Shown here piece by piece: positions 1 through 60,200 of a DNA stretch of 64,000 nucleotides; positions within the stretch are counted from its first letter, which is position 1; the number at the start of each line of letters is the position of its first letter. The stretch lies in the NCBI RefSeq assembly GCF_009914755.1, contig NC_060942.1; one strand, given 5' to 3'. The stretch is from the human T2T-CHM13v2.0 reference genome, Homo sapiens. Both the position numbers and the translations under genes were made by a program. The notes beneath the pieces are model-generated. The model had not been told where the DNA came from. It ran no database searches and saw only the letters and a list, made by a program, of their open reading frames with translations.

Positions 1-3000
1 TGCTTTTTCTGCATCTATTGAGATGATCATGTGATTTTTGTTTTTAATTCTGTTTATGTGGTATATCACATTTATTGACTTGCGTATGTTAAACCATCCC
101 TGCATCCCTGGTATGAAATCCACTTGATCATAGTGCATTATCTTCTTGACATGTTGTTGGATTTGGTTAGCTAGTATTTTATTAAGGATTTTAGCATCTA
201 TGTTCATCAAAGATACTGGTGGATAGTTTTCTTTTTTGGTTTTCTCCTTTCCTAGTTTTGGTATTAGGGTGATGCTGGCTTCATAGACTGAATTAGGGAG
301 GGTTCCTTCTTTCTCTATCTTGTGGAATAATGTCAAAAGGATTGGTACCAATTCTTCTTTGAATGTCTGGTAGAATTCTGGTATAAATGCCTCTGGTCCT
401 GGACTGTTTGTGTTGGTAATTATTTAATTTCCATTTCAATCTCGCTGCTTGTTATTAGTCTGTTCAGGGTATGTAATTCTTTCTGATTTAAGCTAGGAAG
501 GTTGTATTTTTCTAGGAATTTATCCATCTTGTCTAGGTTTTCTAGTTCATGAGCATAAAGGTGTTCATAGTAGAGTTGGATGATCTTTTGTATTTCTGTG
601 GTGTCAGTTGTAATATTTCCTGTTATGTTTCTTAGTGAGGTTATTTGGATTTTCTGTCTTCTTTTCTTGGTAAATCTTGCTAATAGTCTATCAATATTAT
701 TTATCTTTTCAAAGAACCAGCTTTTTGTTTCATTTATCTTCTGTATTATTTTTGTTTCAATTTCATTTAGTTCTGCTCTGGTCTTGGTTATTTCCTTTCT
801 TCTGCTGGGTTTGGGTTTGGTTTGCTCTTTTTTCTCTAGTTCCTTGAAGTGTGACCTTAGATTACCTGTTTGTGCTCTTTCAGACTTTTCGATGTAAGCA
901 TTTAGGGCTACGAATTTTCCTCTTATCACTGCCTTTACTGTATCCCAGAGGTTTTGATAGGTTGTGTCATTATTGTCATTCAGCTTGAAGAATTTTTTAA
1001 TTTCCATCTTGATTTCATTTTTGACCCAATGCTCATCCAGGAGCAGGTTACTTAATTTCTATGTATTTGCATGGTTTTGAAGGTTCCTTTGGAGTTGATT
1101 TCCAGTTTTATTCCCCTGTGGTTTGAGAGAGTGCTTGATATAATTTCAATTTTCTTAAATTTATTGAGGCTCGTTTGATGGCCTATCATATGGTCTATCT
1201 TGGAGAAAGTTCCATGCGCTGCTGAATAGAATGTGTATTCTGCAGTTGTTGGATAAAATGTTCTGTATATATCTGTTAAGTCCATTTGTTCAAGGTATAG
1301 TCTAAGTTCATTGTTTCTTTGTTGCCTTTATGTCTTGATGACCTGTCTAGTGCTGTCAGTGGAGTATTGAAGTCCCCCACTATTATTGTGTTGCTGTCTA
1401 TCTCATTTCTTAGATCTATTAGTAATTGTTTTATAAATTTGGGAGCTCCAGTGTTAAGTGAATATATGTTTAGGATTGTGATATTTTCCTGTTGGACAAG
1501 GCTTTTTACCATTAAATAATGTCCCTCTTTGTCTCTTTTAACCACTGTTGCTTTAAAGTTTGTTTTGTCTAATATAAGAATAGCTACCCCTGCTCGCTTT
1601 TGGTGTCTATTTGCATGAAATGTCTTTTTTCACCCCTTTAAGTTTATGTGAGTCTTTATGTGTTAGGTGAGTCTCCTGAAGGCAGTAGATGGTTGGTGAG
1701 TTCTTTTCCACTCTGTGTTTCTTTATTTTTTTAAGTGGAGCATTTAGGCCATTTACATTCAATGTTAGTATTGAAATGTGAGGTACCATTGCTTTCATCA
1801 TGATTTTTTTTGGATGTGTACTTTGTGTGTGTTTTTTTTTCTTTTTAACTTGTATTTTTGTTTTATAGGTCCTATGTGATTTATGCTTTGAAGAGATTCT
1901 GTTTTGATGTGTTTCCAGGATTTGTTTTTTCAAGATTTAGAGCTCCTTTTAGCAGTTCTTATAGTGGTGGCTTGGTAATGGTGAATTCTCTCAGCATTTG
2001 TTTGTCTGAAAAGAACTATATCTTTCCTTCATATATGATGCTTAGTTTTGCTGGATACAAAATTCTTGGCTGATAATTGTTTTGTTTGAAGAGGTTGAAG
2101 TAGGCCCTCAATCCTTTCTAGTTTGTAAAGAATCTGCTGTTAATATGATAGGTTTTCCTTTATAGGTTACCTAGTACTTCTGTCTCACAGCTCTTAAGAT
2201 TCTTTCCTTCATTTTAACTTTGGATAACCTGATGACAATGTGCCTAGGTGAAGATCTTTTTGCAATGAATTTCCCAGGTGTTTACTGTGCTTCTTGTATT
2301 TGGGTGTCTAGGTCTCTTGCAAGGCCAGGGAAGTTTTCCTGGATTATTCCCCCAAATATGTTTTCCAGGCTTTTAGAAGTCTCTTTTTCCTCAGGAACAC
2401 CAATTATTCTTAGGTTTGGTCATTTAACATGATCCCAGACTTCTTGGAGGCTTTGTTCATATTTTCTTATTCTTTTTTTCTTTGTCTTTGTTGGATTGCA
2501 TTAATTTGAAGACCTTGTCTTTGAGCTCTGAATTTCTTTCTTCTACTAGTTCAATTCTATTGCTGAGACTTTGCAGAGCATTTTGCATTTCTAAAAGTGT
2601 ATCCAAAGTTTCCTGAATTTTTGATTTTTTTTCCTTTAAGCTATCTATTTCCTTGAATATTTCTCCTTTTACTTCTTGTATCATTTTGTGGATTTCCTTG
2701 CACTGGGCGTAGCCTTTCTCTGGTCTCTCCCTGATTAGCTTAATAACTAACCTCCTGAATTCTCTTTCAGGTAAATCAGGGATTTCTTTTTGGTTTGGAT
2801 CCATTGCTGGTGAACAAATGTGATTTTTTGGGGGTGTTGAAGAGCCTTGTTTTGTCATACTACGAGGGTTGCTTTTCTGGTTCCTTCTCATTTGGGTAGG
2901 CTCTGTCAGAGGGAAGGCCTAGGTCTGAAGGTTGTTGTTCAGATTCTTTTGTCCCATAGAGTGTTTCTTTGATGTAATACTCTCCTCCTTTTCCTATGGA

Positions 3001-4300
3001 TGGGGCTTCCTGTGAGCCAAACTGCAGTGATAATTGTCTCTCTTCTGGGTCTAGCCACCCAGCGAATCTGCCTGATTCTGGCTGGTACTGGGGGTTGTCT
3101 GCACAGAGTCCCCTGATGTGAACTGTCTATGGGTCTCTCAGCTGTGGATACCAGTGCCTGTTCTGGTGGAGGTGGCGGATGATGCAATGGACTCTGTGAG
3201 GGTCCTTAGCTTTGGTGGTTTAATTCTCTATTTTTGTCCTGGTTGGCCTCCTGCCAGGAGGTGGTGCTTTCCAGAAAGCATCAGCTGTGGTAGTGTGGAG
3301 AGGGACTGCTGGTGGGCGAGGCCCTAGAACTCCCAAGATCATATGACTTTTGCCTTCCACTACCAGGGTGGATAGGGAAGGACCGTCAGGTGGAAGTAGG
3401 GCTAGGCATGTCTAAGATCAGACTCTCCTTGGGCAGGTCTTGCTGTGGCTGCTGTCGGGGGGTAGAGTGAGATTCCCAGATCACTGGAATTGTGTACCTA
3501 GGAGGATTGTGGCTGCCTCTGCTGAGTCATGCAGGTTGTCAGGGAAGTGGAGGAAAGCCCGCAGTTGCAGGCCTCACCCAGCTCCCATGCAAACCAGATG
3601 GCTAGTCTCATTCCCACTGTGCACCCTCCTCACCCCCAGCTGCCCCAAGTCTGTTTGGAGGCAGAGGGCATGATAGGCTTGAAAACTTGCCTGAGCTATC
3701 TGCCTCTCAGCTGCCAAAGAAAAGGGCTTTAGTTCTTCCCCTGCCTGCGAAGTCTGCACACGGGATTTGCCCCCTCCCGCAAGTTCTGGCCAGGGGGCTT
3801 CTCATGCCATTCAAACTGTTACAAATTTCCGCTAGAGAATTCCTTCTCCCTATGGAGTTTTACCACCTACTCCTCTGGCCACCCTCCTGATGGATCCCTG
3901 TGGTGCCAGGCAGGAATGGACTGCTTGGGGACCCAGCAAGCTCCCAGGGCCTTTCAGCTGCTTCCTCTACCACTCTATTTCACTTGGCTCTCTAACTTGA
4001 CTCAGCTCCAAGTAAAGCCGGAAACTTCTCCCACAAACAGACCTTCAACTTCTCCAATGGGGGTGTGTGTTCGGGAGAGGAAGATCTCCCTTTCGCACTT
4101 CTGCAGTTGGGGCACTCACAGTATTTGGGGTATCTCCCGGGTTCTGCAGTAGCAGTCCGATTCCTTCAGAGGGTCTGTGGGTCCTCTTGGGATTGCTGGT
4201 TTGTTCTTGCACTTGATATGGAGCTAAAATTCACAATGCAAGCCTCCGCATGCTGGTCTGTCTGGAGCTGCAATCTAGTCCTGCCGTGATCCCTTGAAAT
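1..4300 (-). mobile_element. LINE-1, L1PB/L1PBa-type: 5'UTR, decayed ORF1 and ORF2 (endonuclease to start of RT); continues off the left edge
   Basis: Minus-strand ORFs 2457-2891 (MRRNQKSN...PAMDPNQKEIPDLPEREFRR, L1PB-type ORF1 N-terminus), 1607-1933, 1276-1545, 1052-1285 and 420-1007 are L1 ORF1/ORF2 segments with frameshifts; GC-richer 5'UTR at about 2890-4300. Confidence 0.95.
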
Positions 4301-4599
4301 CCCGAATTATTTAGCTTTCTCGTAAAGTAAAGGTTTTTTAGGCTTCCAGTTCCTGGATGCAGTTAAGAAGTAAAATATATTTGCAAAAGAAGACAAATAC
4401 TAATGGAGTTATAAAAGTTTCTATTTTTTTAGAAATAGAAAACAAGAAAGAAATCCAAATGTCTTAGTCCAAGTTTAGATGGGACATTTAGTGATTGGTT
4501 CATCCAAAATCGTGATCATTTTTTTTTTCTTGCAACATCTACATAACAATGTTTAACCTTATCTAAAAGATGTCTAGAAATATAAATTCTGTGTGAAAC

Positions 4600-4740
4600 A
4601 GTACAGTATAATGGAAATAACATTCTATTTGTAGTCAGATATGTTAGGTTCCAATTTTGCTTGTGCAACTTTGGAAAAGTCATTTGGTATGTCTGGGCTT
4701 TTCCCTTTTATCTGCAAAATGAAAGGTTTGTCTATGTAAG
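4600..4740 (+). mobile_element. MIR SINE fragment
   Basis: Degenerate MIR core (..tttggaaaagtcattt..atctgcaaaatgaaagg). Confidence 0.55.
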
Positions 4741-6079
4741 CATTATGGAACTTTCATGGAAAAATACCATAAATGTATCTCAGATGGAAAGGGAGGTGTT
4801 GTTGGTGGGAGACACCACTGACATCTCTGACCTTTTACAGGAAAACACAAACAGTATGAAGGTAGTATATTCCCCGACTTGGAGTTGACATCTAAATAAC
4901 ATAACATTCAGAATCATTTTCTTATTGTCCTTGAGTTTCGGCCAGAAGATGAAATATTTTTCCTCTTAAATCCTCATTTTCTTCAAAGAATCCCTCAAGC
5001 TTCTTAGAATTTATATTAAGAACTGCAGCTATCCTACACTAATTTTGGTAGCTGTATACTTCTGCTAACAATAGGAGGTATGTTATTTATTCACAAGTAG
5101 TATCAAACTTTTGTTAAAATGTTAATTGTAAGTGCAGAGCTGTGGTCATTAGGGTAAACCCATCTGCAACAAAATACCCAGCTTGTGACCGAATGAATTG
5201 TTATGCAGTGAGAAGGATGACCATGGAATGACTCCCATTGTGCTATTGTAGACAAAAAAAAAAAAGGTAAATAACTTAGGGCTATAAATACCTGGCTGTG
5301 AAGGGGGCAATTAGTTAAATAAATTTAAATGTATTTATGCATTTGCTAGGTTGATATCATGCTGGTACATCATTTTTTTAAAACTGGCTTCACATTTTCT
5401 AATTTAAGATGGAAGCCAAGCTGCTGCAATGTCACAATGTATAATTATTGGACAGCCAGCAGCGATTTTTAAAGCAAATTTCACACAATTTCTGAGACTA
5501 GTGTCATACTTTGTTAGTTTGAATTAGTTTGTGAAAGTTTTTTATATACCAGACACCTTAAATTAATGAGACATAGCATTCTATTAATAAATTAGGCCTG
5601 GGAATTTAAATTTGCAAAGATGATATAGCTACAAATAGGTATTTTCAACAAAGATAAAAATATTTAGATTTTTATTTTCTTTTGTAAAAAGCCACTTATT
5701 ATTTTCCCTCTTTTATGTCTTTTCATTAGGACCTAAAGCTCAGCTTCCAATATCCACTGGGAAACAGGTAGCATGATTTAGGGTTAGCTTCCTCATAGCC
5801 TCTTCCCTGTTATCTCTTGCTCTCAGCCTCAACCGAAGTCAATTCTATCAGTGTCTCCCCTGCCGTTTCCTTCCTTCTCACTTTATGACTTCATTTCTCA
5901 ACACAACTTTCAAGTAACACTTAGCTGGGGCTTTGGGGTTACCAGAAGAACCCCTTCCCCATTTCTTCCCTCCATGCGCACAGCCTAAGCAATATAAGAA
6001 GGGACAAATGAGAAGAGTAGTCTTAATATCCGTATTATTTGTTAAGTATTTTTATTTATATATTTTCTCTTCTTTTTAT

Positions 6080-6378
<299 letters not shown>

Positions 6379-6994
6379 ATTTTTTCTCTTCTTAAAGAAT
6401 ACCTCAGACCAGACAGTAGTAGGCTGTTCCACTGAGAATCCAGGCAAAAAAATGAAGCCAAGATGGAATCATGGCAGCGCAGACAGAGCTTAGGGCTTAG
6501 ACAAGCTCCATGGTCAGTAGGCAGGGATGCGGACAGAGTGAGATAAAAGCTTGCTAATAAGCAGAATATACAGACAAAGAAGACTCGGGTTTGGTTAGCC
6601 AGCAAAATCTGAGCGGAAATAAGGAAAAGCAAGCTGGAGCCAGTGTTTTTTTTTTTTTCCCCAGCCAGCACCAAGGACAGCTCCCAGAGACCCATCTGAG
6701 CACAGGTGTTTGTCCTGGCAATTGCCTCTGGCAGCCCAGGTACGGGCAGTGGTAGGAGTTCTTGGTCCAGTAACTATGAGCTTGCTATTATGCCAATGAC
6801 ACAGTACCACACTCTGAAGTGGATCTGAAGTGAATCATAGCTAGTTGATGCTTCTTTGTGTGCACTTTAGAAGTCAGCAGTCAATATACTATAACTTGTG
6901 CATAACTTGCAGTTTTAATGTTTAACAATTAAGCCTAGCTTAAATGGCTGGAAAGGTATGATAATATCTGGTAGACCTCTATGGAAATTAGGAG

Positions 6995-7235
6995 GCAGTA
7001 AATCATGATGGTTAAAAGCACAGGCATTTTTGGCTTTGAATACAAGCTCTACTTCCTAGTTTTCTGAATCACTGAATCTTTCTAAGGCACAATGTCTATA
7101 TCGTGAGTATACTCCAGTAACACAGGGATAATAATAGTACTGACACTATATATTGTTGAGACGATTAAATGTTAATTATTACTATACTAAAGCTTACAGT
7201 AGGATGTGATATTTACTATATAATGCTACTTATTC
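6995..7235 (+). mobile_element. MIR SINE
   Basis: atggttaaaagcacaggc...tttgaatacaagctctacttcctag...gggataataatagtac...gattaaatg. Confidence 0.7.
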
Positions 7236-7799
7236 CATCAAAAATTTCAAAACTGGCCACAACATCACATGGTACTTAAGATCCTGGTGAATGTCTTAAG
7301 CCAGCTAGGCTTATATAAAAGGTTTTACAAAAGTTATTTTTTTGTGTCAGAGAAATGTGATAAAACCTCTATGTTTTTCCCTGAATGAAAATCTCCCTTA
7401 AAAATACTTTATATTACAAATTTAAAATCAGGACTGCAAATCTAGAGGTATAGATGTACCTGAATCCTTTGTGACCAAAGCTAATTGGCAGCTTCAACTT
7501 AGGGATGTGTACAGTAATCTCAGGTTAATATCTTTCAGTCTTGGATGCTTCTTAATCACATAAGGAAATGACTTGAAACAACACTATCTGAGTCTACTGA
7601 CCAGTAGTAGGATAAAGGTATTTGAGTAAGTTGGGTGGAAATAGTAGCCAGTTTGCTATCAAAGCTCATACATTTCAATCACTAGTTGTGTGAGCCTGTG
7701 AAGTGTGTGTGTGAAAGAGAGAGAGAGAGAAAGAGAATTTTCTCTTTTTGCTGATACAGAGCACACAATTCATGATGTTATTTTGAATGCCCACAATAT

Positions 7800-7990
<191 letters not shown>

Positions 7991-8014
7991 TAGGCTTCAG
8001 ATATCTTAGGGAGA

Positions 8015-8225
8015 GAGTATTGTACAGTGGAGAATTGTCAGGATTGTTTTGAAAACAGAATAGCTGGTTTGAATTTCAGAACAGAGGCTTACTTCATGTT
8101 TGGCAAGTCACCAAACTTCTTTGAACCTCTGATACCTCTTCAGTAAAATGTAGATAATATTTATTTTGAGGGTTGTTATAAAATGCAGAGATGGCATAGA
8201 CATTCAATAAATGTCAGCTATTATA
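8015..8225 (+). mobile_element. MIR SINE
   Basis: tggcaagtcaccaaacttctttgaacctctg...cagtaaaatgtagataata...cattcaataaatg. Confidence 0.65.
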
Positions 8226-8763
8226 TTTATTAAATTAATGTACCAATTCAGCCAGTTATTTGTACTAAATTTGTTTGTAATAAAATTTCTCCTTTTGTGA
8301 TTTTGCCAAAGGTTAACATTATTCTTTAAAACATTCTGCTTAAATGACAGTTTAAGCTTTTAAAATTAAAAATGTTTTTAGAGCCTGGTTTATTTCATGT
8401 AAATATATTCTAGTGCACATTTCCTTACTTTTTGGTAATTTTAACATTATCAAGGGATACGAAGCAATGGATATATTAACTAACTTGATTTAATCATTCT
8501 ATAATGCATATATATCAAAATATCATATTGTATACCATAAATATATACAATGCTTCCTTTGTCAACTAAAACAATTTAAAAATTTTTCAGTTTTTTCAGA
8601 TATTTCCATGAACAATGTTCATACTTTATTGCTTTTTCAGATCATGTGACAATACACATTTGTACATTAAGATTGAAAAGCCTACTTGGCTGTTGAATTT
8701 AAACAGCCTTTCATTTTCATTAACTTTTACATTTCTGTATTATCATGTTTAAAATGAACTGCT

Positions 8764-9233
8764 TCATCCCAGAGAAAACACATTTTCCTTGGTGAGATGA
8801 ATCACCATTGACTGATTCATCTCCATCTCAGGGCGGAAGCTCGGTCTAGTGGTTCAAGCTGTGAGGTGTGAGTCAGTTGTTCTAGTTCTATTCCCTTTTT
8901 GGCTCTTCAATAGTTGGTTAAATCCCTGTCCAAAGGAGATGGTACCTCCCGATGTATACTGCACAGAGGGACTGTCGGACAAGATAAATTTGTCCAAGGA
9001 AGAGTAGAGAATGGGATTTAAAATCCATTTAAAGCAATGCATTTGGTATTCATCTTTTCCCTTGGGTCAGTGTTGGCTTCAGGGTTTAGTGGTAAATCAG
9101 AAGGGGTTGGATAATGGGACTTCAACTGCAGACCCTGGGAGATAATTACCTGTATAGCCTCTTCTCCAGTAGTGACACTGTAGTGACTGAAAAGGAAATG
9201 AGGATTGATTGCCACCCAGAAGATAGGAGTCCT
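8764..9233 (-). pseudogene. Candidate decayed (possibly terminal) coding exon of the minus-strand relic gene
   Basis: Acceptor aaaacttttcag| at 9233, then 156 codons (DSYLLGGNQSSFPFQSLQCHYWRRGYTGNYLPG...MHCFKWILNPILYS...KENVFSLG*) with four internal stops, all TGA; non-repetitive sequence. Confidence 0.45.
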
Positions 9234-9807
9234 CTGAAAAGTTTTATTACAGTGGTGTTTTGCTTTAAAACACCATTTAACTGAAGATGTTCTCAGTATG
9301 GTTTTATTCTCTGACAGAAAGGGTACACAGGGCTAACAATGAACACATCGTTAGTACTTTATATTACTCAGTAAACTTTCAGTTCTAAACAGGCTATAGA
9401 TTTTATATTTAGCATATAGAGTAAGGAGACCTTTAAAGCAAGCTGCAGTGGTGTCATATCATTGTACAGTTATTTTAAAATAATCCATAAAAAGAAGAGA
9501 TTTTATTTAAGAATCTATCAGTAGAATTACAAATTCAGCATTAGGATAAGCCAATCATCTATTTATTAAATAAAAATATGCTAAAGCACTGTTGTAAGTT
9601 TCATGGTTCAATATGTTGCTTACTTAAAACTATAGGCCAACCGTTGGGCATCAGCTTGTGTATGTCTACTTTTGTGTCATATTATTGTTAATTTTTTCTC
9701 CAAACCTGGACCCCTTGGATGTTTAAAATGAACATTTGTTTCCTCATGGTACTTTCTCCATCTGTGCTGTTTGTAGGGGGATGCTCATCAGGGCCTTGAA
9801 TTTTTAT

Positions 9808-10240
9808 TGTGTCTTAGTTTGAAATTACGCAGAAGATACTAAGACAAGGATTTGAGTGCAAGCTGTTTATTTGGGAGGTGATTCCAGGGAACTCTGGTAG
9901 GGGACTGAGGAAGGGAGACAGAGCAGGGGAGGAAGGCAATCGTGTTGTCAAGCAAGTTACTATGGTGTGATAGTTTCATCCCATGGGGATCTCTGGGCTG
10001 CATGGAGAACATGGAGTTACCCTCACAGAGCGGCAGGGAAGCTGAGGCGTTTATCCTCATCCAACAGTGTCCCAGGGCTATTTCTGGGGGTAGTACTTCA
10101 CTTCCAGCTTGCCCTTGCCAAGGTCCAGCAAGAAAAATGCTCTCAGACAAGAAGACACTGGTGTTCCTGGTAAGCAGGCTTCAACATGTAGGTGGAGGTG
10201 GGTGCTGGGGGCTGTGAGCAGGCATTGAGAGTATTTGTCA
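9808..10240 (-). mobile_element. ERVL-class solo LTR (LTR33/LTR16-like)
   Basis: tgtcttagttt...agacaaggatttgagtgcaagctgtttatttgggaggtgattccaggg is typical of old ERVL LTRs. Confidence 0.65.
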
Positions 10241-14240: not shown

Positions 14241-15244
14241 AATCAATGAAAAAGATTGTCCAGGGAAAATGAGTGCAGTGAAAGGAAAAACTCTCAGTGT
14301 CAAATTGGGAGGGAGATTAAATAAGATGGTCTTTTAAAGTGTCTTTTAAGAGGAAATTTCTGATCTTTATCACTAATGTTTGTTGTATTTCCTTTTGACC
14401 TTTTTATTGGTGTGTAGTTAAACTCAACATAGTTATTCCAAATTATACAAAATGCATTATTTGCCACTTAATATTTTAACGAGCATTTTTCTCATTGTTG
14501 AAATGCCTCTATTTTTAATTTAGGTTTTCTTTTATTTTTATAGGTTAGGCGGTAATTTTGTAGGCCTTTTTTGCTATATAGCAGTGAATTTTATTCATAC
14601 AGGGATGGTTTCAGAATTACCATCACCTTGTCCTTACACACTTGCTCCTTCACATGTGCAGAGTCATCTAACGATGTGACGTTACATATAAGATTCAGAT
14701 GTCAACATTTTGGAGCCCATCATAAGGTGGAAGAGACAGACATGCACACAATTAATTAAAAGAGAGAATAAAAAGAATTCTAACAGTAGTCTATTCTAAG
14801 TACTATGAGTCTAAAGTGAGGGAACGCCCTATTCATTTTTGCTAAAGCTAGATGCCTGCCATCAGGATGATATTTTAAAAATTAAAGGCAGGTATGTCTT
14901 TTTTACATAATATAACATTTATTTTTGAATGGGTAATGATCTTTTTTGTTAATGCCCTTAACTGTAAGCTTCAGACCATATGTTTTCTTACCCTTGTGCT
15001 TACAAGGAAGAGAAACTGGGATTTATTAATGAATTGTGATGTGCCTGGTGCTGTACTAAGTGAAATTATTCATATCATTTACTTTTTAAATGTAAGTGTA
15101 GACTCATGTATGTTTATTTTCTGTTAATACTTTGGGTTATAAATTAGTACTACATTATTTATTTTGTTGCTTAAATTTTTCTGGCTTTGGCCATTCAGGG
15201 TTCTTTCAGGTTGGCTCCAGAGTCTCCTTGACATGCCCCCAGCC

Positions 15245-15916
15245 TTTTTTTTTTTTTTTTTTTTTAATCTATTCTAGATGTATTAAAGGCTTTATTTTTT
15301 TATTTTTATTTCTACATTATCTATTTTTTTAAAATTAATTAATTAATTTATTATTATTATACTTTAAATTTTAGGGTACATGTGCACAATGTGCCGGTTA
15401 GTTACATATGTATACATGTGCCATGCTGGTGTGCTGCACCCACTAACTCGTCATCTAGCATTAGGTATATCTCCCAGTGCTATCCCTCCCCCCTCACCCC
15501 ACCCGACAACAGTCCCCAGAGTGTGATGTTCCCCGTCCTGTGTCCATGTGTTCTCATTGTTCAATTCCCACCTATGAGTGAGAATATGCGGTGTTTGGTT
15601 TTTTGTCCTTGCGACATTTTGCTGAGAATTATGGTTTCCAATTTCATCCATGTCCCTACAAAGGACATGAACTCATCATTTTTTATGGCTGCATAGTATT
15701 CCATGGTGTATATGTGCCACATTTTCTTAATCCAGTCTATCATTGTTGGACATTTGGGTTCGTTCCAAGTCTTTGCTATTGTGAATAGTGCCACAATAAA
15801 CATACGTGTGCGTGTGTCTTTATAGCAGCATGATTTATAGTCCCTTGGGTATATACCCAGTAATGGGATGGCTGGGTCAAATGGCAGAGACACAACCAAA
15901 AAAGAGAATTTTAGAC
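15245..15916 (-). mobile_element. Young L1PA (L1PA3/4-like), 5'-truncated, with 3' transduction and a short inverted 5' piece
   Basis: Poly-T 15245-15265; unique segment to about 15330; L1 3' end to 15884 (cccactaactcgtcatctagc); sense-strand ORF2 piece ggcagagacacaaccaaaaaagagaattttagac at 15883-15916; TSD gacatgccccca(g/t)cc at 15230-15244 and 15914-15928. Confidence 0.9.
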
Positions 15917-15934
15917 ATGCCCCCATCCTTTTTT

Positions 15935-17135
15935 CGTTTGTTTGTTTTGTTTTTGTTTAATTCAACTTTTATTTTAGATTAATGGTGTACACAGGCAGGT
16001 TTGTTATTTGTGTATATTGCATGATGTTGAGGTTTGGGGTACAAATGATCCTATCACTCAGATACTGAGCATGGTACCCAACAGTTAGTTTTCAACTTTT
16101 ACTCCCATCCCAACCTTCCCCCCAGTCCCCAGTGTCTATTGTTGCCATCTTTATTTCCATGAGTACCCAATGTTTAGCTTCCACTTATAAGTGAGAACAT
16201 GCAGTATTTGGTTTTCTGTTCCTGCATTAATTCACCTAAGTTAGTGGCTCCAGCTGCATCCGTATTGCTACAAAGGACATGGTTTCATTCTTTTTTATGG
16301 CTGTGTAGTATTTCATGGTGTATGTGTAGCACATTTTCTTTATCCAATCTACCACTGATGAAAACCTAGGCTGATTCCATGACTTTGCTATGGTGAATAG
16401 CACTGTGATAAACATGTGAGTGCCTGTGTCTTTTTGGTAGAAAAATTTGTTTTCTTTTGGATATATACCCCATAATGGGATTGCTGGCTTAGATGGTAAT
16501 TTTGTTTTAACTTCTTTGAGAAATCTCCAAACCGCTTTCCACAGAGGCTGAACTAATTTACATTCCCACCAACAGTGTATAAGCATTCCCTTTTCTTTGC
16601 AGCCTCACCAGCATCTGTTTTTCGACTTTTTAATCATAGCCATACTGACTGGTGTGAGATAGTATCTCATTATGGTTCTGATTTGTATTTCTCTGATGAT
16701 TAGTGATGCTGAGCATTTTATTTATATATTTGTTGTTGTCCATTTGTATGTCTTTTGAGAAGCATCTGTTCATGTCTTTTGTCCATTTTTAATGGGGTTG
16801 TATTTCTAGTTCTAGATCCCTGAGGAATTGCCACACTGGCTTCCACAATGGTTGAACTAGTTTACAGTCCCACCAACAGTGTAAAAGTGTTCCTATTTCT
16901 CCACATCCTCTCCAGCACCTGTTGTTTCCTGACTTTTTAATGATTGCCATTTTAACTGGTGTGAAATGGTATCTCATTGTGGTTTTGATTTGCATTTCTC
17001 TGATGGCCAGTGATGGTGAGCATTTTTTCATGTGTTTTTTGGCTGCATAAATGTCTTCTTTTGAGAAGTGTTGTTTTCTTATTCAATTGTTAAAGTTCCT
17101 TTTAGATTCTGGATATTAGACCTTTGTTAGATGCT
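15935..17135 (-). mobile_element. Older L1 (L1PA16/L1PB-type) 3' end, interrupted at 16801-17070
   Basis: ttcaacttttattttagatt...; ORF 16236-16586 is the ORF2 C-terminus ([14 protein letters not shown]); resumes at ttgttttcttattcaattg (17071). Confidence 0.9.
16801..17070 (-). mobile_element. Tail-less internal fragment of a young L1PA ORF2
   Basis: tatttctagttctagatccctgagg...ttgagaagtg; ORF 16789-17031 ([22 protein letters not shown]...); no poly-A; gttgt on both sides. Confidence 0.88.
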
Positions 17136-18656
17136 TATCATGAATTACGTTGACCAATTGCTTTTCTCCCAACACTTAGCTGAATAGGGTCTCTAAGGCA
17201 AAAAGGGAATAAAGAAGTAGCTCAAAGGGGACATTTTGGAAGCTGGGGTAGAGGGCATGTTGTGGAGCAAGCATCAGATGGCGCTGTTGGCTGTGAAGAG
17301 GGATGTGGGGGCCTGGGAATTCCAGCTGCAGAGGCTGGAGGGGAGTGCCAGGAGGAGGGTATCTTGAGGCCAACAGCACCCCTCCTTTGTAACATCCCCT
17401 GGTGTCAACTGACAGCATAGTGATTCTTAAAGAAAACTAGGACCTTGAAAGGTGACTTGTAGATGTAGAACATCCATACATACTATGTTCGTGTCCAATG
17501 AAGCTGTTAATTTTTCCATGCCAATGTTAAAATGATATGACATAGAAAATGGCACTTGTAGATAACCTCATACTTTCTGTTTATGAATAGTTTTACCCTC
17601 TTCCTCTCCTCTCCTCACTAAGTCTTTTCCCAGATCTGTTACATGAGATAAAAACAGCTGACTTGTGTCCCAATTCTCTTTAAATGTCTTGTGGCAGCAG
17701 TAATGAGAGAAAATGAACACCCCAAACTGTTTCCAGTTAAAGGAAGGAAGAATATGATAGCACTTGAGTCGTGTTCTTCAGTTGTTTTTCATATGTACAT
17801 CTGATCTTCTCAACCAAGGTAGTGGTTTCTTTTTCTGTCTCTCACTGAGCATGTCACCGGAGTGCTGTGTATAGAGTAAGGCCTTAATAAATATGTGTTC
17901 AGTTGACAGGAGCAGGAGCCAGGGGCTAAGCTGATCTCACAGTATAATGTCAGCTTCTGAATAATTGAGCATGGTCTGTGTGATTAATGTATTTATGTAT
18001 TCAGCTGGTATTAGCAATATCCTCCCTGCCACTTTCCTGCCTGTGTCTGTCATCTGTCAGCCATGCATTTGTAGAAAGACTCTATAATGGGTGCTTGTTA
18101 ATAAAACAAGCAGGAGAAGGCTTGTGCTGAAATAAAGGTGTTAGGGAGTTATTGATTTGAAAATATTTAAACAATTCATGTAAATGTTCTGCTTCATATG
18201 TATACATGGAATGTATATATAGACCATCAACAGTTTGTCAGTATCAACAGCTGAGATTTAAAAATGATATCCTTATGAGATGGTAAATTGACCAGAAACT
18301 ATATCAGCCAAGGCTAGCTTTTGTTGCTGTTGTTATGTTTCTTAGGAATGTAACACACAGTTAGTAAAAAAAAAAAAAGGTCTCCATTCAAGGTCATAAA
18401 TGATGTCTTATTTAATGGAAATGCATTGTGAAAAGCAATAAGCAATGATTTCCTGTTAACTACAATGATCCCAGCTGGAAAACATCACTAGAAGAAATTA
18501 TAAGTAACTCTTCTTTAGTTACTAGGAAGAGAGACAAAACATTTTCTTGGATGACTGTTCTGTATTTTTCAATCCCAGGAGGTGGAAGCAGGGGTACAGC
18601 CAATTAGGATTATTCAGTTTTTTACATGCACACTAATATAGAAAGAATCTTGTTGG

Positions 18657-57362: not shown

Positions 57363-58031
57363 CAATATGGGAGTGAAGATTATTTTGTTTGTGTAGTCAC
57401 AGTGATACTTTTAAAGTGCAGATAGTGGAGATCTGAATAGACAGTTCCCCTGCTAGCAAATGCTTCAATGGCTCTCCACTGACCTGAGGAATCAACCCTC
57501 CTTTCCATTTGATTTATATGATTCTTCATGGTCTGGCATGGCTTACTCCTTAAGTCAGACTCTAGACTTTATCCTCACTGTGCTTCTCATCCATCATGGT
57601 TTTGCTAACCATACTGGTGATAGCACAATTAGGGATTTGATCTGTTACCCTCTTTAACTTTTCTCCAGCAATTCATAAGAATGACTCCCCTCTTCTTTTG
57701 GAAATGTTCTACTCCATTTGCTTCTATGACAATGGTTTCTTCTTGTGATCTTCCTAAAGTACTTGTCATTCGGTCTCAGTTTCAGTTTTGGACATGTTAA
57801 TTTTGAAATGCATGTGAGAGAGCCAAGCAGGGATCATTAGTATCCAAGGAATTTGGATATATGGGTCTGGAGATCCTCCTGGCTCCTCTTTTGAATTATC
57901 TTCAACTGAGGTCCTAACATCTCAGTCCTGGGTCCTCCTCTTTCCATCTCTCTCTGTTCTCCTTTCATATTTCCTTTTCCTTCTCCCTGCTCTCTTTTAT
58001 TCTCTTTGGCAATGACTTTTAAAATCTATGA

Positions 58032-59109
58032 TATCAGGGGAACCCACCCCCAATATTTCAACATAGGTTCTATTTTCCATAAGTGTTGGCCGGCTGAGAA
58101 AGAGAGAGAGTACAGAGAGAGGAATTTTACAGCTGGGCCTCTGGGGGTGACATCAGCTATCAGTAGGACCGTGATGCCCACCTGAGCCTTAAAGCCAGCA
58201 AGTTTTATTAAGGATTAGAAAAGGGGAGGGGGGTGCAAGAACAGGGAGTAGGTCACAAAGATCACATGCTTCAAAGGGCAAAAAGGAGAATAAGATCACA
58301 TGCTTCTAAGGGCAAAATCAGAAACTTCTGATAAGGGTCCAACAAAGATCACAAGGCAAATGGCAAAAGCAAAGATCACAAGTCAAAGGGCAAAAGCAGA
58401 ATTACTGATAAGGGTCTATGTTCAGTGGTGTACGTATTGTCTTGATAAACATCTTAAACAACAGAAAACAGGGTTTGAGAGCAGAGAACTGGTCTGACCT
58501 CAAATTTACCAGGGCAGGGTTTTTCCCCACCCTAGTAAGCCTGAGGGTACTGCAGGAGACCAGGGCATACTTCTGTCCTTATCTCAACCACATAAGACAG
58601 ACACTCCCAGAGCAGCCATTTATAGACCTCCCCTCCAGGAATGCATTCCTTCCCCAGCGTATTAATTATTAATATTCCTTGCTAGGAATAGAATTTAGCA
58701 ATATCTTCCCTACTTGCACGTCCGTTTATAGGCTCTCTGCAAGAAGAAAAATATGGCACTATTTTGCTCGACCCCGCAGGCAGTCAGACCTTATGGTTGT
58801 CTTCCCTTGTTCCCTGAAAATTGCTGTTATTCTGTTCTTTTTCAAGGTGCACTGATTTCATATTGTTCAAACACACATGTTTTGCAATCAATTTGTACAG
58901 TTAACACAATTATCATAGTGGCACTGAGGTGATGTACATCCTCAGCCTATGAAGATAACAGGATTAAGAGATTAAAGTAAGACAGGCATAAGAAATTATG
59001 AAAGTATTATTTGGGAACTGGTAAATGTCCATGAAATCTTCACAAGTTATGTTTCTCTGCTGCGGCTCCAGCCAGTCCCTCCGTTCGGGATCCCTGACTT
59101 CCTGCAACA
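58032..59109 (-). mobile_element. MER11 (HERV-K11, ERVK class) solo LTR
   Basis: Reverse complement starts TGTTGCAGGAAGTCAGGGATCCCGAACGGAGGGAC; perfect 6-bp TSD ctatga at 58026-58031 and 59110-59115. Confidence 0.95.
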
Positions 59110-59263
59110 CTATGACAATTCTAACACTTAAATCTCTAGCCAGTACTTCTCCATGAGCTACAGACTTTCATACACAAGCTGTTTGGAAGCATGTGTGTTT
59201 CTCAAAGAAAATGTGAGCTCCCTAGGAACAGGACCTTATGTTTCTTGTCCACTATTGTATTTC

Positions 59264-60200
<937 letters not shown>

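What the first reader, a model, noticed from the sequence alone, without database searches (positions are those of the whole stretch)
15230..17075. One young L1 apparently split into three pieces at two sites about 900 bp apart
Seen: the TSD-flanked L1PA stops at ...gctgggtcaaatgg (15884). The next consensus bases (tatttctagttctagatccctgagg..., contiguous in the copy at 59761-59800) reappear at 16801-17070 as a tail-less 270-bp insert inside an older L1, flanked by gttgt. The TSD-flanked part is capped by a 34-bp inverted piece from far upstream in ORF2 (GRDTTKKENFR, roughly 1.9 kb away in the consensus). Inference: a single complex retrotransposition event, with twin priming plus capture of a cDNA fragment at a second nearby break.
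Basis: partly seen in the sequence, partly recalled or inferred. Interest (0 to 1): 0.7.

Follow-up and report, generated by a model that had tools for sequence, protein, structure and literature searches.

The report
One L1 copy split in two
A young jumping gene (LINE-1) in human DNA lies in two pieces about 900 bases apart whose ends meet exactly, likely because one copying event was cut and pasted into two neighbouring places, which would mean some 'tail-less' LINE-1 fragments are offcuts of ordinary insertions.

Summary
Observation confirmed. A young antisense L1 3' end (A, 15345-15884) and a 34-nt inverted ORF2 piece (C, 15883-15916, from about 1.9 kb upstream) sit between target-site duplications (15230-15250, 15914-15934). 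The 270 nt that follow A in intact copies (B, 16800-17071) lie about 890 bp away, same strand, inside an older L1. A and B carry compatible subfamily states, though B has only three informative columns. 'gttgt' is not a proven duplication (0-5 nt). New: A's tail holds a 30-nt tag matching only one other place, on contig 2, an endonuclease-like site with no young L1 beside it, likely a 3' transduction from a source element missing here. Best reading: one twin-primed retrotransposition whose first cDNA was also joined at a second point and then cut (single event about 0.85; tethered route 0.55). Ape orthologues and reads could not be checked. Tumour and cell-culture analogues exist; a local, copy-neutral germline case was not found in eight literature searches. 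New variant of a known kind; one locus.

The parts
15230..15250 (.). Left copy of the target-site duplication (12 nt exact, 21 nt with one mismatch; its end overlaps the T-run)
15245..15264 (-). Final poly(A) tail of the inserted RNA (T-run on +)
15265..15294 (-). 30-nt non-L1 tag, likely a 3' transduction; 30/30 match to G000:C2:127461413-127461442; AATAAA (minus strand, 15291-15296) about 25 nt before the final tail
15295..15344 (-). A-rich tail of the source L1 (inferred)
15345..15884 (-). Piece A: 3' end of a young L1 (about 96% to nearest genomic copies); contains a patch of older-class states at 15607-15634
15883..15916 (+). Piece C: inverted ORF2 fragment; 29-nt core 15885-15913, 2-nt overlap with A and 3-nt overlap with the TSD; 1.9 kb upstream of A in intact copies
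15914..15934 (.). Right copy of the target-site duplication, running into the T-rich tail of the old L1
15935..16801 (-). Host segment M: T-rich tail and 3' end of an older L1 (79-82% to 39 genomic relatives); collinear homeologue of A (71%) and B (78%)
16800..17071 (-). Piece B: tail-less 270-nt young L1 fragment that directly continues A; boundaries blurred by 2-3 nt of microhomology on each side
17072..17137 (-). Host segment R: the older L1 resumes in register, then ends

Best explanation
Pieces A and B are adjacent parts of one young L1 sequence lying about 890 bp apart, likely because a single twin-primed retrotransposition event joined its first cDNA at two places and the cDNA was then cut between A and B. 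Inferred steps: (1) The L1 endonuclease nicked the + strand in the T-rich tail of the older L1, and a first cDNA was made from the poly(A) tail through the tag, A and B. (2) The overhang of the other end (TSD, 3-nt microhomology) primed internally on the same RNA 1.9 kb upstream and copied about 30 nt (C). (3) C's end paired by 2 nt (GG) inside the first cDNA, at the A|B boundary, leaving B unpaired but attached. (4) B's free end was joined by 1-3 nt of microhomology to host DNA about 890 nt away, probably at the end of a resected tract, giving a bubble with B on one strand and C plus host segment M on the other. (5) Cutting at opposite forks (or replication through the bubble), fill-in and end joining kept both strands in tandem: left flank, A, C, TSD, M, B, R. 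Shown: the order, orientations, junction overlaps and abutment. Inferred: steps 1-5.
For: A|B abut within 1-2 nt. B is on the same strand as A and on the side where the cDNA end would point; a free fragment had four strand/side options. A matches the middle class at 16 of 23 discriminating columns, the 8-copy older class at 15, the young class at 10 and the oldest set at 11; B matches the middle and 8-copy older classes at 3 of 3, the young class at 2 of 3, the oldest set at 0 of 3. Divergence from the majority of 25 near copies is 16/537 for A, 4/269 for B, 0/29 for C; A vs B Fisher p=0.24. No piece of B remains beside C and no inverted piece beside B, as expected if the ends were free during integration. 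Assumption-based chance estimate: at most 1.6e-6 per young L1, about 0.05 genome-wide. Precedents: two halves of one L1 at separate bridges, and one twin-primed L1 repairing other breaks, in tumours (10.1101/2024.08.27.596794, section 9); kilobase-scale remodelling (917 bp) of the reciprocal end and different outcomes on opposite strands (10.1101/2024.12.14.628481, sections 9 and 11).
Against: No outgroup genome or reads were available, so co-insertion is untested. B has only 3 discriminating columns and shares no private variant that ties it to A; no sibling or source copy was found. A is twice as diverged as B, with an older-class patch at 15607-15634. A 1.9-kb gap at the inversion is far above the 14.5-bp median in tumour insertions, and B fills only 270 nt of it. 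B's end lies 36 nt from its homeologous register in the host, but there is no trace of heteroduplex repair: A's variants equal the host base at 5 of 16 (controls 3 of 16 and 3 of 15), B's at 0 of 4. Mismatches are reported to suppress cDNA annealing (PMC13526784 passages), so homology guidance is unsupported. Sequence alone cannot separate the tethered route from free-flap capture.
Confidence: 0.55

Rival explanations
1. Same single event, but B was trimmed off as a free flap when C paired inside the first cDNA, and was then captured by end joining at an independent break nearby.
For: Explains the exact abutment equally well. B's site has no tail and no TTTT/A motif, as described for endonuclease-independent insertions (PMC1920257 passages). 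Flap removal is invoked for L1-induced ends.
Against: Needs a second, separate break within 900 bp. Does not predict B's strand or side (1 in 4 by chance) or its closeness to the homeologous register (36 nt).
Confidence: 0.28
2. An ordinary inverted insertion (A, B, then C) was later reshuffled by a local three-break or replication-switch rearrangement that moved B past M.
For: Post-insertion variation is a recognised source of non-canonical elements (PMC12350158 passages). It would also keep A|B abutting.
Against: One break would have to fall at or across the inversion junction and leave no B remnant at C and no C remnant at B, while M stays single-copy and uninverted. A duplication-plus-loss route needs two deletions ending exactly at the duplication edges.
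Confidence: 0.1
3. Two independent insertions: a twin-primed L1 and an unrelated tail-less L1 fragment that abuts it by coincidence.
For: Tail-less elements exist in numbers (21 curated in PMC1920257; 3,665 polymorphic tail-less mobile elements of all classes in PMC12350158). A is more diverged than B (3.0% vs 1.5%, not significant).
Against: Expected count about 0.0005-0.05 genome-wide for 100-10,000 assumed tail-less fragments and 30,000 assumed young L1s. Compatible class states.
Confidence: 0.04
4. Assembly error that moved part of a repeat.
For: The region is all repeat, and a graph error could give exact abutment.
Against: B differs from the window's other young copy (97.5%) and from the other 39 of 40 best genomic matches (99% at most). 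The C cap, TSD and transduction tag are biological signatures. The flank is single-copy.
Confidence: 0.03

Closest known systems
Twin-primed (5'-inverted) L1 insertion with internal deletion
   Same: TSD around a forward 3' piece and an inverted upstream piece, microhomology at both inversion junctions (description in PMC2837659 and 10.1101/2024.08.27.596794 passages).
   Different: The inverted piece is only about 30 nt, the gap is 1.9 kb, and the first 270 nt of the 'deleted' part survive 890 bp away outside the TSD.
Somatic L1 'two halves of the same element' bridges (10.1101/2024.08.27.596794, section 9)
   Same: An interstitial tail-less L1 fragment whose 3' breakpoint matches the 5' breakpoint of another piece; twin priming; cDNA ends engaging other breaks.
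   Different: Those are tumour events megabases apart that create inversions, deletions or translocations, often with two L1s. Here one L1, under 1 kb, host DNA kept in order and copy number, present in a reference assembly.
Non-classical (endonuclease-independent) L1 insertion, NCLI (PMC1920257)
   Same: B alone has no tail, no clear TSD, no TTTT/A motif and microhomology at both ends.
   Different: B continues a neighbouring tailed insertion. That study screened out fragments of 3'-intact L1s separated by intervening sequence; 'chr18' does not occur in its main text.
L1-mediated target-site deletion and local end remodelling (10.1101/2024.12.14.628481, sections 9 and 11)
   Same: Left flank-A-B-R is the shape of an L1-mediated deletion; sub-10-kb resection scale; different products from opposite strands.
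   Different: The would-be deleted segment M is retained, between A and B, in its original orientation.
L1 3' transduction
   Same: Unique tag between the L1's A-rich tail and a second poly(A), traceable to one locus (method as in PMC12350158 passages).
   Different: The traced locus holds no young L1 in this assembly.

Membership tests
Twin-primed L1 insertion | TSD enclosing both pieces | tested here: met
   15230-15250 and 15914-15934 enclose A and C
Twin-primed L1 insertion | Inverted piece from upstream in the same L1 | tested here: met
   C is opposite to A and 1,895-1,921 nt upstream in 9 of 9 uninverted copies holding it
Twin-primed L1 insertion | Microhomology at the internal priming site and at the inversion junction | tested here: met
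   3 nt (GAC) with the TSD, 2 nt (GG) with A; overlaps this short also arise by chance
Twin-primed L1 insertion | Poly(A) tail and endonuclease-type nick | tested here: inconclusive
   Tail present; the nick lies in a T-run followed by CG, not the canonical TTTT/A; TTTT/C is listed as a motif
NCLI (piece B) | 3' truncation, no poly(A) tail | tested here: met
NCLI (piece B) | No TSD | tested here: inconclusive
   0-5 nt depending on which host form was ancestral
NCLI (piece B) | Not a fragment of a nearby 3'-intact L1 | tested here: not met
   B abuts A
NCLI (piece B) | Empty site verified in an outgroup primate | not testable with these tools
   The genome has no relatives here (header)
L1 3' transduction | Unique tag between two A-rich tails mapping to one locus | tested here: met
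   2 matches genome-wide at up to 3 mismatches, one being the window itself; 6e-8 exact matches expected by chance
L1 3' transduction | Full-length source L1 directly upstream of the tag | tested here: not met
   No match to A, B or C in 6.4 kb upstream; the tag begins at a TT/AAAG site, as for an empty allele (inference)
L1PA3-type subfamily | Diagnostic states against curated consensus sequences | not testable with these tools
   No repeat library on hand; classes were built from genomic copies. The label L1PA3/L1PA4 is recalled, not tested

The most novel reading that the evidence does not exclude
This is a germline fossil of a retrotransposition intermediate in which one twin-primed L1 cDNA was attached at two sites and resolved so that the L1 is split around intact host DNA. 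It belongs to an overlooked class of 'split insertions' that accounts for a share of supposedly endonuclease-independent L1 fragments and of 'internal deletions' in inverted L1s, and its source is a lost L1 at an empty contig-2 site that another ape may still carry.
Probability: 0.3. Interest if true: 0.65.

Novelty: new variant of a known kind. Interest (0 to 1): 0.45.

Why it matters
If right, it shows where sequence 'deleted' at an L1 inversion junction can go, and that the first cDNA can run past the junction and be cut rather than simply stop. It suggests that some tail-less L1 fragments counted as break-repair insertions are by-products of neighbouring ordinary insertions, a class that an earlier screen excluded by design. 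It also extends a mechanism seen in tumours to a small, copy-neutral germline event. The transduction tag makes the claim directly testable if the source L1 survives in another ape. No functional effect is implied: the locus is repeat DNA in an intron of a predicted lncRNA.

Tried and rejected
Reading 'gttgt' as a TSD: unresolved, since host relatives have two forms. Looking for a duplicated copy of the locus with an empty site: none among 40 scored candidates of 1,007 for the right flank. Looking for the source L1 at the tag's locus: absent. Looking for siblings sharing private variants: none among the 15 fetched of the 40 best B matches or the 15 fetched of the 40 best matches to A's variant patch; these searches score only 40 candidates, so absence is weak. 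The A|C|TSD junction had no second full-length match among 40 scored of 594. Heteroduplex-patch test for homology guidance: negative. 'The old L1 inserted into the young one' was rejected because the old L1 continues in register beyond B and is about 20% diverged. 'B is a gene conversion' was rejected because the old homologue of B is still present at 16498-16762. Gilbert et al. 2005 (chimeric L1s, recalled) was not held and is not used as evidence. A genome-wide count of similar split insertions could not be made.

Full report
What is there. On the + strand the order is: left flank, TSD copy 1 (15230-15250), T-run, a 30-nt tag (15265-15294), an A/T-rich tail, piece A (antisense young L1 3' end, 15345-15884), piece C (sense ORF2 fragment, 15883-15916), TSD copy 2 (15914-15934), host segment M (antisense older L1, 15935-16801), piece B (antisense young L1, 16800-17071), host segment R (older L1 resumed, 17072-17137). 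The TSD is 12 nt exact and 21 nt with one mismatch if the T-run is counted. The older L1 is 79-82% identical to 39 genomic relatives, and R continues it in register, so B lies inside the old element and not the other way round.

The abutment is real. B matches the window's other young copy at 59774-60050 (97.5%), starting where A's match ends. In the genome search, A-matches end and B-matches begin at the same base of the same copies. In 19 of 20 fetched copies the alignments share one base; the other has a substitution at that spot. C occurs exactly 3,250 times in the genome. It was found in 12 of the 20 copies; in the 9 not themselves inverted it lies 1,895-1,921 nt beyond A's end, about 1,635 nt beyond B's end. 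C overlaps A by 2 nt and the TSD by 3 nt.

B's target site. GTTGT flanks B on both sides, but two of its letters on each side also belong to B's own L1 sequence. Of 20 old-L1 relatives, 4 have a short form of this spot and most of the rest a longer form. With the short form the site reads as a 5-nt duplication, with the long form as a blunt join; each needs the same 3-nt loss in the host. It cannot be settled without an outgroup. There is no tail and no TTTT/A motif at B.

Same age? Against the per-column majority of 25 near copies, A differs at 16 of 537, B at 4 of 269 and C at 0 of 29 (12 copies); A versus B gives Fisher p=0.24. I sorted 53 of the 56 copies examined (3 lacked coverage) into young (14), middle (31) and older (8) classes by A-side columns. 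A falls in the middle class; B's four-column haplotype is carried by 22 of 31 middle, 4 of 8 older and 3 of 14 young copies. Most of these copies were chosen for likeness to A or B; in the 17 classifiable of 20 chosen only by C, the haplotype is in 2 of 4 middle, 2 of 5 older and 0 of 8 young copies. With 15 still older copies added, B matches the middle and 8-copy older classes at 3 of 3 discriminating columns and the oldest set at 0 of 3; A matches middle at 16 of 23 and the older class at 15 of 23 (L071 and the window's 59-kb copy were left out there). A carries four older-class states in 15607-15634, bounded by middle-class states at 15585 and 15641, which looks like a short conversion tract; the oldest set was picked for likeness to that patch. 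So A and B are compatible, probably near the L1PA3/L1PA4 boundary (labels recalled, not tested), but the test is weak and no private variant links them.

The tag at 15265-15294 has one other genomic match within 3 mismatches, at G000:C2:127461413-127461442, 30 of 30 identical; about 6e-8 such matches are expected by chance. An AATAAA lies about 25 nt before the final tail. No match to A, B or C lies in the 6.4 kb upstream of that site, and the tag begins at a TT/AAAG step, an endonuclease-like site. Inference: a 3' transduction from a source L1 that stood there and is absent from this assembly (never fixed, or sorted away). A template switch onto a short RNA is the alternative.

Chance. Assuming 100 to 10,000 tail-less young L1 fragments and 30,000 young L1 insertions, an unrelated fragment within 1 kb, on the same strand and abutting within 3 nt is expected 0.0005 to 0.05 times genome-wide. 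The counts are assumptions. For scale, PMC1920257 curated 21 such insertions (passages) and PMC12350158 counts 3,665 polymorphic tail-less elements of all classes (passages).

Mechanism (inferred). The first cDNA ran from the tail through A and B. The other end primed internally and copied C. C's end paired at GG inside the first cDNA, which fixes the A|B boundary and leaves B unpaired. In the preferred route B's end was also joined to the host about 890 nt on, so that one strand read A-B-R and the other A-C-M-R; cutting at opposite forks or replication, fill-in and end joining then gave A-C-M-B-R. This predicts the strand, the side and the exact split, and needs no independent break. Free-flap capture at a separate break predicts only the split. 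Together the two single-event routes get about 0.85. B's end is 36 nt from its homeologous register in M, which hints at homology guidance, but the patch test was negative (5 of 16 and 0 of 4 variants equal the host base; controls 3 of 16 and 3 of 15 for A), and mismatches are reported to block cDNA annealing (PMC13526784, passages). I do not count homology as part of the mechanism.

Comparison with print. 10.1101/2024.08.27.596794 (passages and section 9) reports a tumour inversion in which an interstitial fragment and a truncated L1 are two halves of one element, and a twin-primed L1 whose cDNA ends repair other breaks; it gives a median internal deletion of 14.5 bp. 10.1101/2024.12.14.628481 (passages, sections 9 and 11) reports a 917-bp inversion at the reciprocal end and different outcomes from opposite strands. 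PMC1920257 (passages) defines tail-less insertions and excluded fragments of 3'-intact L1s separated by intervening sequence. Passages of 10.1101/2025.02.02.635956, PMC5673974, PMC10415145, PMC12350158 and PMC2837659 showed no case of this layout. Eight searches found no local, copy-neutral germline split insertion. The library lacks most subscription papers, Gilbert et al. 2005 was not held, and no supplements were read; the supplementary figures of the two preprints could hold such a case.

Verdict. It is a new variant of known twin-priming and L1-bridge mechanisms, at one neutral locus, with a concrete route to proof through the tag. Interest 0.45.

Noticed in passing
window 15265-15294 and L056 (G000:C2:127461413-127461442): Transduction-like tag whose only other genomic match has no young L1 upstream: a likely lost source element at an endonuclease-like site.
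   Followed up: partly
window 15607-15634: Six differences from near copies in 28 nt, four of them older-class states: a likely short gene-conversion tract from an older L1, not from the adjacent host.
   Followed up: partly
window 59260-60200: Young-class L1 3' end with an internal deletion of about 55 nt near 59562 relative to piece A; shares B's rare base at 16839 (1 of 52 copies), probably a recurrent change.
   Followed up: no
window 58030-59110: About 1.1-kb stretch with short internal repeats that resembles a solitary LTR (recalled impression, not tested).
   Followed up: no
L011, L018, L027: 3 of the 12 fetched copies that hold C carry it inverted, i.e. they have their own 5' inversions.
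   Followed up: no
L056:4300-5250: GC- and CpG-rich stretch 1.2-2.1 kb upstream of the tag's origin.
   Followed up: no
window 17135-17430: Flank right of the old L1 matches two places on contig 8 at 74-76%: probably an old low-copy repeat.
   Followed up: no
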